The notes under the pieces: model-generated
What the model was told of the DNA's origin: nothing
The model's database searches: none
Seen by the model: the letters and a program-made list of their open reading frames with translations, nothing else
Part shown: positions 1 through 59,305 of the stretch, piece by piece
How positions within the stretch are numbered: position 1 is the first letter of the stretch
Layout of the letters: each line of letters opens with the position of its first letter
Source: an uncultured Roseivirgaceae bacterium
GTDB taxonomy: Bacteria > Bacteroidota > Bacteroidia > Cytophagales > Cyclobacteriaceae
Reading direction: 5' to 3'
DNA length: 64,000 nt
Assembly: GCA_964488585.1 (NCBI GenBank)
Contig: CAZAWQ010000095.1
Span: 531-64,530, forward strand
Position numbers and translations under genes: made by a program

Positions 1-363
1 TCAGAGACTACAGTTAACACCCTTGAACAATTTAGATTGTATACACTGGTGCAATGTAAGCCCACGACGGGAAGAACACATCAGATAAGGGTGCATTTGT
101 CTGCATTGGGTGCCCCTATTGTCGGAGACCCTAGCTATGGTGGACATGAGCTTTTTTTGTCAAGCATAAAACGACACTATAATTTAAGAAAAGACACTGT
201 AGAACGTGCCCTCATAGCACGGCCAGCCCTTCACGCCCAAAGCCTTAGGTTTCAAATCTCGGAGAATAAGTCAGAAATATTTGAAGCAGAATATCCAAAA
301 GATATTAAAGTAACTCTGAAACAACTAGACAAATACAGAGCCTACAATCAAGGCTGGTGTTAA
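1..363 (+). CDS. RluA-family pseudouridine synthase, C-terminal part (5' end upstream of window)
   Basis: Frame 1 is open from base 1 and runs into the listed 37..363 ORF. It contains the [11 protein letters not shown] motif typical of RluA/RluD-type pseudouridine synthases. Confidence 0.8.
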
Positions 364-562
364 GTTCAGTATACTGTGTCGTATAAGTCGCAGGTATTTT
401 TGTCCCAGGCGATGCAAAAAATATACGCATAGCCATAGTTACGCAAGTATTTTTTAAAGAAGTATGGGGCAAAAAGAACAAGACTTGGTTTGGCTAAAGT
501 ATGCTTAACTTAACACTGGAATATAGGAGGCTAAATCTGCTTGAAAACTAAAGAGGCCACTA

Positions 563-55108: not shown

Positions 55109-56254
55109 ATGAGAAAAATTGGAAATGACCGGTTATTATTTGGTAACAGGAAACCTTGGTTGTCACTGATTTCTCTGATGTTGATTGCCTTTGGCGGACT
55201 CATAATTGGACAGTTTGTGGCAATTCTGATAGTCACTAAGGTTTATAACCTAAGTATATTTCAGGTTATGGAAATGGTGACAAACATTTCTGATTACCCG
55301 GAATATAAAGTAGCTATTTTCCTTCTTCAGGGTTTATCCGCGGTCTTCGGCTTTATATTGGCTCCCTGGTTTTATTTAAGGTTCATCGAAAAAAAACGTC
55401 TTAGGGCACTGAGCCCCAACGCACAGATAGAACTGCTGCCGGTAATATTGGCATTATTGATAAGTATTGTGTTTATGGCGGTGAATTTCAAGTTTGCTGA
55501 GTGGAATGCACAAATGGTTTTTCCGGAATTCTTGAAAGATGTTGAAACCTGGATGAGACTGCAGGAGGACAAATTAGAGGAAGCTACTTATTTTCTTACC
55601 ACCATCAACAATCCCAAAGAACTAGTACTGGCAATGTTGGTAATTGCCATTATTCCAGCAATCGGTGAAGAACTGCTATTCCGTGGCTTGATCCAAAATC
55701 AGTTGCTGAGTTGGTTCAGAAATACCCATTGGGCGGTTTGGATAACGGCAATCATATTTAGTGCCATTCATATCCAATTCTATGGTTTCGTCCCAAGAAT
55801 GTTACTGGGAGTGCTCTTTGGATATATGTACGTTTGGTCTGGCAATCTGCTATACCCTATGTTGGCACACTTTGCCAACAACGGATTTCAGATAGTAATG
55901 CTTTATCTATACAGCAATAGACTTACAGACTTCGATATGGAAAATGCCGACACTGTTCCATGGACGGTTTTTTTCACTTCTGCCTTGATCTCTACTTTAT
56001 TATTTATTTTCTTTAAACGCCATTTTTCTAAGGTCCCTAGCGAAAGCCTAGATTGGCAGAAAGTTTTCGCAACTGATCAGATCCATCGGGCAGAAATAGT
56101 GAAATCTGTGCTGACTGACCACCAGATGAATCCAGTACTAATCAACAAAAAGGATTCTTCTTACCATAATTTTGGTGAGATAGAAATCCATGTGACCGCA
56201 GAATACCTTCAAAAGGCACTTCATATTATCGAAAACGACATCAACTTTGAGTAA
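55109..56254 (+). CDS. CPBP-family intramembrane glutamic endopeptidase fused to a C-terminal DUF2007-like domain
   Basis: EELLFRG, FSAIH and HFANN are the three CPBP/CAAX-protease motifs. The last ~65 aa (VFATDQIHRAEIVKSVLTDHQMNPVLINKKD...IEIHV) resemble the small DUF2007 domain. Confidence 0.8.
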   Translation: MRKIGNDRLLFGNRKPWLSLISLMLIAFGGLIIGQFVAILIVTKVYNLSIFQVMEMVTNISDYPEYKVAIFLLQGLSAVFGFILAPWFYLRFIEKKRLRALSPNAQIELLPVILALLISIVFMAVNFKFAEWNAQMVFPEFLKDVETWMRLQEDKLEEATYFLTTINNPKELVLAMLVIAIIPAIGEELLFRGLIQNQLLSWFRNTHWAVWITAIIFSAIHIQFYGFVPRMLLGVLFGYMYVWSGNLLYPMLAHFANNGFQIVMLYLYSNRLTDFDMENADTVPWTVFFTSALISTLLFIFFKRHFSKVPSESLDWQKVFATDQIHRAEIVKSVLTDHQMNPVLINKKDSSYHNFGEIEIHVTAEYLQKALHIIENDINFE

Positions 56255-57071
56255 ATACCCCAATATCCATACAAGGATTCTCACAGCAACATTTGGCGCT
56301 GCCATCATTGTCATGAGCATTTTATATGGCCCTTGGAGTTATTTCGGAGTTTTTCTGATAATCGCGGTTCTCACTCAGTGGGAGTTTTATAGAATTATAG
56401 AAACCCCAGACTCACGTCCGTTAAAAATATGGGGTACTCTTATGGGTCTATTTTTGGTTAGCCTCTGTTTTCTATCCATTAATGGAAATTTGAGCTTTGA
56501 TTGGTTGATGATTCTTATTCCATTGGGAATGACCACTTTTGTTATCAAACTATTCCAAAAGCATGAAACAAATCCTTTTTTGGGTACTGCATATACCTGG
56601 TTAGGAATTATTTATATCGCACTCCCATTTAGTATGTTGCACTACATCGGTTATGCTCATGGCTCATACAATTTTCAATTGGTACTGGGATGCCTCCTAT
56701 TACATTGGGCCCATGACGTTGGTGCATATTTCGTGGGTGTGCGTTTCGGACGGACCAAGTTGTTTGCGCGCTTATCGCCTAACAAATCCTGGGAAGGCAG
56801 CGCTGGGGGTGCATTGCTGACATTGTTGGTAGTGTTCATTGGATCATTTTGGGCCGATGCCCTGAAACTATGGGAGTGGTTAACCATAGGTGTCCTGGTG
56901 ATAGTTGCGGGTACTTTGGGGGATCTGGTAGAATCGCAGTTAAAAAGAAGCCTGGAAATAAAGGACTCGGGCAATAGTATTCCTGGTCATGGTGGCTTTT
57001 TAGACAGATTCGATGGCCTGCTCATCTCAACTCCTTTTATAGCAGCATTTTTAAAGTTTATAGTTTCTTAA
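56247..57071 (+). CDS. cdsA: Phosphatidate cytidylyltransferase
   Basis: The C-terminal signature SQLKRS..IKDSG..IPGHGG.LDRFD is canonical for CdsA. The TTG start overlaps the upstream gene by 8 nt. Confidence 0.9.
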   Translation: MSKYPNIHTRILTATFGAAIIVMSILYGPWSYFGVFLIIAVLTQWEFYRIIETPDSRPLKIWGTLMGLFLVSLCFLSINGNLSFDWLMILIPLGMTTFVIKLFQKHETNPFLGTAYTWLGIIYIALPFSMLHYIGYAHGSYNFQLVLGCLLLHWAHDVGAYFVGVRFGRTKLFARLSPNKSWEGSAGGALLTLLVVFIGSFWADALKLWEWLTIGVLVIVAGTLGDLVESQLKRSLEIKDSGNSIPGHGGFLDRFDGLLISTPFIAAFLKFIVS

Positions 57072-57248
57072 ACCCAGAATTGTCATTAGATTTTGTAGCG
57101 AGGCTTCCAAGTTGCTGTTAGTCAGGTGCTAACGCAGCTTTTTGGCACGGAGACATAGTAAGATTATGGTGAGTACCAAAAAGTGAGTACGTGCCTGAAT
57201 GATAGTAAATTAGAAGCCACAGTAAATTTCTAGTGACAATTTTGGGTT
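57071..57248 (+). other. ~178-nt imperfect hairpin element (structured RNA or MITE-like)
   Basis: A 19-bp terminal stem (57071-57089 with 57230-57248, two G-U pairs), continued imperfect pairing inward, and an inner stem CTTTTTGGCAC/GTACCAAAAAG (57138-57148 with 57172-57182). The apical loop is about 23 nt. There is no ORF and no U-tract. Confidence 0.6.
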
Positions 57249-57359
57249 AAATTGTTGCATTAGTTATTATCTACCGGTTCATAAAAATGGGTGGTCATTT
57301 GAAGAAACTATTTAGTCAAAATAGTTACATTGCAAGCATCATAAACAACCTATTTAACT

Positions 57360-58634
57360 ATGGCCTATATTGAACCGGCCCCTATAAAAGATAAGGAAAA
57401 TCCCTTTGAGTCAATGATGTCCAGGTTTCACATTGCTTCGCAAGCTTTAGGACTGGATGATGAGGTCTATAATGTACTCAAGTCTCCCGCAAAACAAGTT
57501 CAGGTATCACTACCAATTACCATGGATGATGGTTCTCTCAAGGTATTTGAAGGTTTTAGAGTAATCCACTCTAATATTTTGGGACCGTCTAAAGGTGGTG
57601 TCAGGTATGATATGAGTGTACATATGGACGAGGTTAAAGCCTTGGCCGCCTGGATGACCTGGAAATGTGCAGTGGTTGATATCCCTTATGGGGGCGCAAA
57701 AGGTGGCATTAAGTGCAACCCCCGTCAAATGTCAGCCGGTGAGATCGAACGATTAACCAGAGCATATACCTTTGCTATGGCGGAAATATTCGGACCAGAC
57801 CGGGACATTCCTGCACCGGATATGGGGACAGGTCCCAGAGAAATGGCCTGGTTAATGGATGCCTATTCAAAGGTGCAGGGTATGACTGTAAATAGTGTGG
57901 TTACAGGCAAGCCATTGGTCCTAGGCGGCTCACTGGGACGAACGGAAGCCACCGGAAGAGGGGTAATGGTAACTACCTTAGCAGCGATGGCGAAACTAAA
58001 GATCAATCCCTACCAGGCAAGCGTTGCAGTGCAAGGGTTTGGAAATGTAGGATCTTTTGCTAGTCTATTATTAGAAGAAAGAGGATGTAGAGTTGTAGCC
58101 TTAAGTGACTTATCTGGAGCTTATTACAATGAGAAAGGAATTTCAGTGGAAAAAGCCATCGAATATCGGGATAAAAACAATGGACATTTGGAGGGCTTTG
58201 AGGAGGCCGAGAAAATATCAGGAGATGATCTTCTTACATTGAAAACTGATGTTTTAGTACCAGCAGCAACTGAAGATGTAATTACCACTAAAAATGCTGA
58301 TAAGATTAATGTCAGGTTGATTGTTGAAGGTGCTAACGGACCTACCTCGGCTAACGCGGATCCCATAATAAATGATAAGGGAATCATGGTAGCCCCTGAT
58401 ATACTGGCAAATGCCGGCGGAGTAACGGTATCTTATTTTGAGTGGGTTCAAAATAGATTGGGTTATAAGTGGTCGGCAGAGCGGGTTAATCGCCGTTCTG
58501 ATCGCATCATGAAAGACGCTTTCGACCGGGTATATCAGGTGTCACTGGAATACAAGGTAAATATGCGGATTGCGGCCTACATTGTGGCCATAGACAAAGT
58601 AAGTAAGACCTACAAATTCAGAGGCGGGTTTTAA
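57360..58634 (+). CDS. gdh: Glutamate dehydrogenase (Glu/Leu/Phe/Val dehydrogenase family)
   Basis: GPSKGGVR, KCAVVDIPYGGAKGG (catalytic Lys region) and the GFGNVG dinucleotide fold. 424 aa. Confidence 0.95.
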   Translation: MAYIEPAPIKDKENPFESMMSRFHIASQALGLDDEVYNVLKSPAKQVQVSLPITMDDGSLKVFEGFRVIHSNILGPSKGGVRYDMSVHMDEVKALAAWMTWKCAVVDIPYGGAKGGIKCNPRQMSAGEIERLTRAYTFAMAEIFGPDRDIPAPDMGTGPREMAWLMDAYSKVQGMTVNSVVTGKPLVLGGSLGRTEATGRGVMVTTLAAMAKLKINPYQASVAVQGFGNVGSFASLLLEERGCRVVALSDLSGAYYNEKGISVEKAIEYRDKNNGHLEGFEEAEKISGDDLLTLKTDVLVPAATEDVITTKNADKINVRLIVEGANGPTSANADPIINDKGIMVAPDILANAGGVTVSYFEWVQNRLGYKWSAERVNRRSDRIMKDAFDRVYQVSLEYKVNMRIAAYIVAIDKVSKTYKFRGGF

Positions 58635-58645
58635 TAGAAAGGAGC

Positions 58646-59305
58646 ATGAGCATACATCGGGAAGGATATGTTCCACTGCTGACTACTGCAGTGGTACTGT
58701 TAATTTTAAACTTATTAGTAATCCAGTTTTTAACCTGGCCTCCCCCTTGGCCGACATTGGTACATCTGACCAGTACTATATCATTTTTTATGATTCTGCA
58801 GTTTTTCAGGAACCCTAAAGTAAATACAGTTATTGATGATCGCAAAGTATACGCCCCCGCGAATGGAAAGGTAGTAGTAATTGAAGAAACCCACGAGCAA
58901 GAATACTTTAACCAACCCCGTAAACAAATAAGTATTTTTATGTCACCTGTAGATGTTCATGTTAACCGGAACCCTGTATCAGGTATCATAAAAATTCTTA
59001 ATTATCATGCCGGCAAGTACCTGGTGGCTTGGCATCCAAAATCAAGTATGGAAAACGAACACACCACTTTGGTTGTAGAGGCTACTCAGGGTGTCGAAAT
59101 ACTGATCCGCCAGATAGCCGGAGCCGTAGCCAGACGGATTAAATGCTATGTTACCGAAGGTGATTTAATAACCCAGGGTGAAGAATTTGGGTTCATTAAA
59201 TTCGGATCTCGAGTCGATGTATTTTTGCCTTTAGACGCTGAAATTAATGTAAGCATCGGTGAGAAAACCATAGCCGGCAAAACTGTAATTGCTCATTTAG
59301 TTTAA
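58646..59305 (+). CDS. psd: Phosphatidylserine decarboxylase proenzyme (short, membrane-anchored type)
   Basis: ISIFMSP.DVH.NR.P and the self-cleavage site context FGFIKFGSRVDVF (G-S). It starts 11 nt after the gdh stop. Confidence 0.9.
   Translation: MSIHREGYVPLLTTAVVLLILNLLVIQFLTWPPPWPTLVHLTSTISFFMILQFFRNPKVNTVIDDRKVYAPANGKVVVIEETHEQEYFNQPRKQISIFMSPVDVHVNRNPVSGIIKILNYHAGKYLVAWHPKSSMENEHTTLVVEATQGVEILIRQIAGAVARRIKCYVTEGDLITQGEEFGFIKFGSRVDVFLPLDAEINVSIGEKTIAGKTVIAHLV

What the first reader, a model, noticed from the sequence alone, without database searches (positions are those of the whole stretch)
57071..57248. ~178-nt imperfect hairpin starting in the cdsA stop codon (structured RNA or MITE-like insert)
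The element begins at the last base of the cdsA TAA.

Structure:
- AACCCAGAATTGTCATTAG (57071-57089) pairs with CTAGTGACAATTTTGGGTT (57230-57248) over 19 bp.
- Pairing continues inward, with bulges and internal loops, through GGCTTC/GAAGCC and TCAGG/CCTGA.
- The inner stem CTTTTTGGCAC/GTACCAAAAAG (57138-57148 with 57172-57182) closes a ~23-nt loop.

Most departures from a perfect DNA palindrome remain G-U pairs in a plus-strand transcript. I count about 7 G-U against 3-4 C-A mismatches, which mildly favours a plus-strand RNA.

No U-tract follows the element, so it is not a standard intrinsic terminator. It contains no ORF. No second copy and no obvious target-site duplication is visible in this window.
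Basis: seen in the sequence. Interest (0 to 1): 0.6.

Follow-up and report, generated by a model that had tools for sequence, protein, structure and literature searches.

The report
IS1380-type miniature transposon after cdsA
The 178-nt hairpin after cdsA is a small non-coding transposon (a MITE of the IS1380 insertion-sequence family) that landed on the gene's stop codon; it is an ordinary kind of element, not a dedicated regulatory RNA.

Summary
The hairpin is real: RNA fold -77.3 kcal/mol, z -9.8 on +; -57.9 on -. It is a mobile element, not a locus-specific RNA.

- **Boundaries.** The element proper is 57073-57246 (174 nt). It ends CCCAG...TTGGG, has 17-nt terminal inverted repeats, and is flanked by a 5-bp target duplication, TTAAA, at 57068-72 and 57247-51. 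The left copy contains the cdsA stop codon.
- **Parent family.** The same ends bound 1.45-1.49-kb elements that encode an IS1380-family DDE transposase, as well as many 117-340-nt miniature derivatives. These occur in Bacteroidota, Ignavibacteriota and Nitrospirota assemblies. 48 of 123 exact arm matches sit at contig ends.
- **Other copies.** This 174-nt subfamily (88-93% identity) lies on three contigs of one Flammeovirgaceae MAG and on 22 metagenome contigs, all with unrelated flanks.
- **Empty site.** A ~99%-identical contig in one metagenome joins 57067 directly to 57247. It lacks the element and one TTAAA.
- **Strand asymmetry.** All 13 subfamily copies fold better on the same strand, so the G-U asymmetry is inherited. 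It shows no orientation bias relative to flanking genes (12 co-oriented, 9 anti) and no significant covariation.

The verdict is an ordinary MITE. Any effect on cdsA or gdh expression is untested.

The parts
57068..57072 (.). Left copy of the 5-bp target-site duplication TTAAA; it contains the cdsA stop codon TAA (57069-57071)
   Evidence: Identical pentamer on both sides. The 5 letters fit either side of the empty-site joint ('both' = 5).
57073..57246 (.). MITE proper, 174 nt, a non-coding whole-length foldback with termini CCCAG...TTGGG
   Evidence: It is 93% identical to L011 851-1024 and 88% to L119 3412-3594, at unrelated loci.
57073..57089 (+). Left terminal inverted repeat CCCAGAATTGTCATTAG
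   Evidence: It matches exactly the ends of full-length IS1380-family elements, e.g. L047 5937-7416.
57230..57246 (-). Right terminal inverted repeat (CCCAAAATTGTCACTAG on the - strand; 15 of 17 identical to the left one)
57247..57251 (.). Right copy of the target-site duplication TTAAA
56247..57071 (+). cdsA (CTP_transf_1), upstream host gene; its stop codon lies in the target site
   Evidence: PF01148, 1.6e-57
57360..58634 (+). Glutamate dehydrogenase gene, downstream host gene, 113 nt beyond the element's last base (57246)
   Evidence: PF00208, PF02812

Best explanation
The hairpin is a non-autonomous miniature inverted-repeat transposable element (MITE) derived from a clade of IS1380-family insertion sequences. 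An IS1380-type DDE transposase supplied in trans recognises the ~17-bp terminal inverted repeats (CCCAGAATTGTCATTAG) and inserts the element into an AT-rich pentamer, duplicating it. Here the pentamer is TTAAA, which overlaps the cdsA stop codon, and the left copy of the duplication preserves that stop. The long hairpin is a by-product of the element's foldback architecture, in which the left half is roughly the reverse complement of the right half. When the cdsA-gdh region is transcribed, the + strand RNA would carry a very stable stem-loop just after the cdsA stop.

Shown here: the ends, the TSD, shared ends with transposase-bearing elements, copies at unrelated loci, and a presence/absence polymorphism. 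Inferred: mobilisation in trans by that transposase, and the consequences at the RNA level.
For: They come from Bacteroidota, Ignavibacteriota and Nitrospirota, plus single Gammaproteobacteria and Endomicrobium MAGs. 48 of 123 exact matches lie within 150 nt of a contig end with the element running off it, which is how assemblies break at repeats.

(2) The same ends bound 1452-1483-bp elements in L047, L107, L006, L036, L085, L023, L120 and L025. Their ORF is an IS1380-family transposase: NF033539 scores 254 bits against a cutoff of 180, and PF13701 gives 3.4e-50.

(3) The termini are CC..GG and the TSD is 5 bp. The TSD is identical in 25 of 46 paired copies, including covarying non-consensus pentamers (ATAAA x5, TTTAT x2, TTGAT, ATTAA), and is TTAAA/TTAAA in the window. 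These are the published family traits (PMC10045372).

(4) The window's subfamily recurs at 93%, 88% and partially at 96% identity on three contigs of one Flammeovirgaceae MAG. It also occurs on 22 metagenome contigs, and none shares flanks with the window. TSDs are identical in 10 of 13 complete subfamily copies.

(5) Empty site: a 519-nt contig in run X4 lies on 56800-57067 (1 mismatch) and then directly on 57247-57323. It skips 179 nt, which is the element plus one TTAAA. The filled allele is present in the same run at similar depth.

(6) Summed word depth is ~6 on the flanks and 45-270 over 57064-57255. Loose ends at the element's borders run into several different flanks.
Against: Only one copy lies in the 64-kb window, and the window has no IS1380 transposase gene. 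No full-length IS sharing more than the ~25 terminal bases with this particular subfamily was found. The depth and loose-end evidence comes from metagenomes, so those copies may lie in other organisms.
Confidence: 0.93

Rival explanations
1. Exapted MITE: the element is a MITE by origin, but at this locus its RNA hairpin now has a function. It might act as a 3'-end stabiliser of the cdsA message, an RNase III processing site, or a partial transcription barrier that uncouples cdsA from gdh-psd.
For: The more stable strand (-77 against -58 kcal/mol) is the one co-transcribed with cdsA and gdh. The hairpin starts immediately after the stop codon. Single-sided changes in the subfamily often keep G-U pairing, with 98% of cells paired.
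Against: The strand asymmetry is present in all 13 subfamily copies whatever their orientation, so it is inherited rather than selected at this locus. Across the family, the stable strand is co-oriented with tandem flanking genes 12 times and anti-oriented 9 times (p 0.66). Only 2 pairs show changes on both sides, and 45 of 500 shuffles do as well. The empty allele coexists at equal depth in run X4. No U-tract or terminator was found. No RNA data cover the locus.
Confidence: 0.08
2. A single-copy, locus-specific structured RNA (a cis-regulatory element or sRNA) conserved downstream of cdsA.
For: There is a strong fold z-score and plus-strand G-U bias.
Against: Related copies sit at many unrelated loci. 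There is a TSD, and the TIRs are shared with transposase-bearing IS elements. A near-identical strain lacks the element precisely. There is no Rfam match.
Confidence: 0.01
3. A REP/BIME- or ERIC-like host repeat spread by a RAYT-type (IS200/IS605-like) enzyme or by recombination, not by a DDE transposase.
For: It is an intergenic palindromic repeat lying after gene 3' ends. Insertion contexts were convergent 7 times and divergent once.
Against: The ends are identical to those of full-length IS1380 elements, and there is a regular 5-bp duplication. REP elements do not make such a duplication.
Confidence: 0.02
4. An assembly artefact: a chimeric or foldback misassembly.
For: Repeats do break these assemblies.
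Against: An independent JGI contig carries the same filled site at 99.9% identity over 12.2 kb. A 427-nt contig in run X2 spans the whole element and both flanks.
Confidence: 0.01

Closest known systems
MITEs derived from bacterial insertion sequences (e.g. MITEPye1 of Paracoccus yeei from the IS1182 family, PMC11578231; from my own knowledge also Correia/NEMIS, ERIC, RUP and Nezha)
   Same: It is small and non-coding, has TIRs matching an IS family, carries a TSD, lies between genes, and folds into a long stem-loop as RNA. It is presumed to be mobilised in trans.
   Different: The parent family here is IS1380. I found no paper describing an IS1380-derived MITE in the library searched. The short subfamilies (117-183 nt) are end-to-end foldbacks, not just TIR-bounded deletions.
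IS1380 family insertion sequences (ISEcp1, IS1247, IS942 and others; the closest annotated relatives found were Aliarcobacter plasmid IS1380-family transposases at ~41% aa identity)
   Same: It has CC..GG termini and a 4-5-bp AT-rich TSD. Full-length elements with the same ends encode an NF033539 transposase.
   Different: The window's copy has no transposase. It is 174 nt long, against ~1.5 kb for the full-length elements found here.
Eukaryotic piggyBac transposons (distant relatives of IS1380; PMC5718144, PMC10045372)
   Same: The ends are CCC...GGG, and the preferred target contains TTAA (TTAAA and TTTAA make up 15 of the 25 identical TSDs). The empty allele is seamless.
   Different: The duplication is 5 bp, not 4, and other AT-rich pentamers such as ATAAA and TTTAT are also used. 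Whether the empty site arose by excision is unknown.
Intrinsic terminators or 3'-UTR stabiliser hairpins
   Same: It is a stable stem-loop directly after a stop codon.
   Different: It has a 174-nt foldback, no U-tract and no hit in the terminator scan. It is mobile and polymorphic.

Membership tests
MITE | Small size (roughly under 500 bp) with no coding capacity | tested here: met
   The element is 174 nt with no ORF of 20 aa or more.
MITE | Terminal inverted repeats | tested here: met
   The TIRs are 17 nt with 15 of 17 positions matching; chance expectation in the window is 0.02.
MITE | Target-site duplication of the length made by the parent transposase | tested here: met
   TTAAA lies on both sides. 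The 5-bp TSD is identical in 25 of 46 family copies and 10 of 13 subfamily copies.
MITE | Several copies at unrelated sites | tested here: met
   There are three contigs in one Flammeovirgaceae MAG and 22 metagenome contigs, all with unrelated flanks. Depth spikes and loose ends agree.
MITE | Several copies within this same genome | not testable with these tools
The window holds one copy.
MITE | Presence/absence polymorphism with an intact empty site | tested here: met
   A contig in run X4 joins 57067 to 57247, skipping 179 nt with 5 shared letters at the joint.
MITE | An autonomous element with the same ends | tested here: met
   Elements of 1.45-1.49 kb have the same TIRs and an intact 443-aa transposase, e.g. 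L047 and L107. None shares the subterminal sequence of this subfamily.
IS1380 family (as the source of the ends) | DDE transposase matching the IS1380 model | tested here: met
   NF033539 scores 254 bits (cutoff 180) and PF13701 scores 171 bits, in full-length relatives but not in the window.
IS1380 family (as the source of the ends) | 5'-CC..GG-3' termini and a 4-5-bp TSD | tested here: met
   The termini are CCCAG...CTGGG with a 5-bp TSD. The trait is as stated in PMC10045372.
IS1380 family (as the source of the ends) | Transposase binds and mobilises these ends | not testable with these tools
   This needs a transposition assay.
Rho-independent terminator | GC-rich stem followed by a U-tract | tested here: not met
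   No terminator-like sites were found, and the sequence after the stem is TTAAATTGTTGC.
Any Rfam RNA family | Score at or above the family's gathering threshold | tested here: not met
   The best score was 17.4 bits against a threshold of 48, E 0.1.

The most novel reading that the evidence does not exclude
The foldback itself may be under selection as a nucleic-acid hairpin. Every copy of this subfamily, and several other short subfamilies of the same IS1380-derived MITE group, keeps an end-to-end stem that is 5-20 kcal/mol stronger on one strand. One copy (L127) changed both termini in a compensatory way. This could mean that the transcript hairpin is processed and acts on neighbouring genes or on the parent transposase. 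Alternatively, the element may move, and excise seamlessly as piggyBac does, through a hairpin intermediate, in which case the empty allele would be an excision product.
Probability: 0.08. Interest if true: 0.5.

Novelty: new member of a known kind. Interest (0 to 1): 0.2.

Why it matters
For annotation, this removes a candidate 'novel structured RNA'. It also gives exact boundaries, the TSD and the parent family of a MITE group that is widespread in sediment Bacteroidota, Ignavibacteriota and Nitrospirota and that fragments their metagenome assemblies. It is a documented natural insertion polymorphism inside the cdsA-gdh-psd gene row, so it could serve as a strain marker and as a natural test of what a 174-nt hairpin does to a polycistronic message. 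The CCC...GGG ends and the TTAA-containing target add a prokaryotic example to the known link between IS1380 and piggyBac. None of this would surprise a specialist in mobile DNA.

Tried and rejected
- **Rfam.** A scan at permissive E-value gave only sub-threshold noise.
- **Promoter and terminator scan.** It found no terminator. A weak TTGGCA-17-TATGGT match sits inside the element, but I did not weigh it because Bacteroidota promoters differ from the sigma-70 type. Bacteroidota-type TAnnTTTG motifs matched only with one mismatch.
- **Plasmid collection.** There was no DNA match to the element.
- **Covariation.** Twelve complete subfamily copies are too similar and not independent; only 2 pairs changed on both sides, which is not significant.
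- **Orientation test.** The stable strand showed no bias relative to flanking genes.
- **RNA runs.** No true RNA run holds the locus, so transcription could not be checked.
- **Transposase in the window.** A tblastn search found none.
- **IS982 family.** I first considered it from memory, on the ACCC ends. I dropped it once the true ends (CCC) and the transposase family were determined.

Full report
**Observation.** The stretch 57071-57248 folds into one long imperfect hairpin. As RNA the + strand gives -77.3 kcal/mol (dinucleotide shuffles -38.6 +/- 4.0, z -9.8, none of 200 as good). The - strand gives -57.9 (z -7.9). As DNA it gives -31.8 (z -6.5). The 19-nt outer arms occur only here in the window, once on each strand. 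The element contains no ORF of 20 aa or more, no terminator-like site and no credible Rfam match.

**Context.** On the + strand the gene order is an Rce1-like protease gene, cdsA (56247-57071), the hairpin, a glutamate dehydrogenase gene (57360-58634) and psd (58646-59305).

**What it is.**
They come from many Bacteroidota families, Ignavibacteriota and Nitrospirota, plus single Gammaproteobacteria and Endomicrobium MAGs.
- 48 of the 123 exact matches lie within 150 nt of a contig end with the element running off the contig. That is what a multi-copy repeat does to short-read assemblies.
- Pairing left and right arms in the fetched loci gave two classes. Elements of 1452-1483 bp form one class. 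Miniature elements of about 117, 165, 174-189, 217-235 and 290-340 nt form the other.
- The long elements carry one ORF. In L047 it is 443 aa and matches the NCBIfam IS1380-family transposase model at 254 bits (cutoff 180), and Pfam DDE_Tnp_1_4 at 3.4e-50.
- Transposases in the other full-length copies are 52-99% identical to it.
- The nearest annotated plasmid relatives are Aliarcobacter IS1380-family transposases at about 41% identity.

**Boundaries and target duplication.** Comparing flanks shows that the conserved ends are CCCAG...CTGGG. The two bases outside them on each side vary together with the opposite flank. A 5-bp duplication is identical in 25 of 46 paired copies: TTTAA 9, TTAAA 6, ATAAA 5, TTTAT 2, and TTGAT, ATTAA and TAAAA once each. 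In the window the element proper is 57073-57246 (174 nt), flanked by TTAAA at 57068-57072 and 57247-57251. The cdsA stop codon (57069-57071) lies in the left copy, so the insertion kept the reading frame and the stop. CC..GG termini and a 4-5-bp duplication are the published hallmarks of IS1380, which it shares with its distant eukaryotic relative piggyBac (PMC10045372; PMC5718144).

**The window's subfamily is mobile.**
- Its closest relatives among the genome loci are L011 (93% over all 174 nt), L119 (88%) and L087 (partial). All three are on different contigs of one Flammeovirgaceae MAG, and their flanks are unrelated to the window.
- A metagenome scan with a 25-mer from inside the element (57208-57232) found 22 further contigs, 19 of them from one assembly. 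None shares flanking sequence with the window.
- Complete copies there are 174-203 nt (one is 267 nt). TSDs are identical in 10 of 13 complete subfamily copies, counting the window's.

**Empty site.**
- Laying contigs of four sediment and marine metagenomes on 56800-57500 showed summed word depth of about 6 on the flanks and 45-270 across 57064-57255.
- Loose ends at both borders of the element lead into several different flanks.
- In run X4 a 519-nt contig lies on 56800-57067 (1 mismatch) and continues directly at 57247-57323.
- That joint skips 179 nt, which is 174 plus one TTAAA, and 5 letters fit either side of it. The filled allele is present in X4 at the same depth.
- At 95% likeness or more, other near-identical copies with different flanks appear in further runs; runs X5 and X10 show the same foreign flank.
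- An independent JGI contig carries the filled site at 99.9% identity over 12.2 kb. A contig in run X2 spans the whole element. The insert is therefore not an assembly artefact.

**Is the RNA hairpin selected?**
- All 13 complete subfamily copies fold 5-20 kcal/mol better in the orientation that corresponds to the window's + strand. The asymmetry was therefore inherited from a master copy and not acquired at this locus.
- Short subfamilies (117-183 nt) are end-to-end foldbacks, while longer ones are not.
- I defined the 'stable strand' for every complete miniature element with at least 5 kcal/mol of asymmetry. That strand is co-oriented with tandem flanking genes 12 times and anti-oriented 9 times (p 0.66). 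Seven copies lie between convergent genes and one between divergent genes.
- In a 12-copy alignment, 98% of cells pair. Only two pairs changed on both sides, and 45 of 500 shuffles do as well.
- I therefore see no evidence for RNA-level selection, although the data are few and not independent. No RNA run covers the locus.

**Mechanism.** The shown facts are the TIRs, the TSD, the shared ends with transposase-bearing elements, dispersal to unrelated loci, and the presence/absence polymorphism. I infer that an IS1380-type transposase acting in trans moved the element into TTAAA at the cdsA stop. I also infer that any read-through transcript from cdsA now carries a -75 kcal/mol stem-loop before gdh. 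Whether that alters expression is unknown.

**Limits.** The copy number and the presence of an autonomous partner in this genome are therefore unknown. The window itself has no IS1380 transposase. The host was not identified. The evidence on host is ~42% GC, BatD, Rce1-like and cdsA-psd gene content, and a MITE subfamily shared with a Flammeovirgaceae MAG. This suggests a Cytophagales-like Bacteroidota, but I did not test it.

**Novelty.** MITEs derived from IS families are well known, for example the IS1182-derived MITEPye1 (PMC11578231). A full-text search for 'IS1380' together with 'MITE' returned 21 papers. None of the 15 listed titles describes an IS1380-derived MITE, and the one I read on this point (PMC11578231) does not. 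This is best filed as a new member of a known kind. Interest is low.

Noticed in passing
window 357-517: A second, unrelated foldback of about 161 nt (arms GTGTTAAGTTCAGTATACT / AGTATGCTTAACTTAACAC). RNA MFE of 350-523 is -62.6 kcal/mol, z -6.3. It overlaps the last 7 nt, stop codon included, of the ORF ending at 363. Metagenome word depth jumps from ~3.5 to 50-190 across it, and loose ends at 357 and 517 lead into different flanks. It is probably another MITE family.
   Followed up: partly
window 56247-59305: gdh lies between cdsA and psd. The empty-site contig keeps the cdsA-spacer junction up to 57323, so the MITE insertion is a separate and later event than the placement of gdh there.
   Followed up: partly
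L127 2686-2860: One subfamily copy has changed both termini in a compensatory way (CCCGG...CCGGG instead of CCCAG...CTGGG).
   Followed up: no
L122, L129, L138, L141 (alignment A2, columns 141-161): One sub-lineage of the MITE carries a nested ~20-nt GC-rich palindrome (GCCTGCCTG..CGGTAGGCAGG) inserted in the loop region. L131 and L119 carry other small insertions.
   Followed up: no
window 57142-57170: A sigma-70-like TTGGCA-17-TATGGT match lies in the centre of the MITE and points towards gdh. It is conserved in the closest copies. Its relevance is doubtful in a Bacteroidota-type host.
   Followed up: no
L001-L120: The 17-nt TIR is conserved exactly in elements whose transposases have diverged to 52-59% aa identity and that lie in different phyla. 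This suggests strong constraint on the ends and/or horizontal spread.
   Followed up: partly
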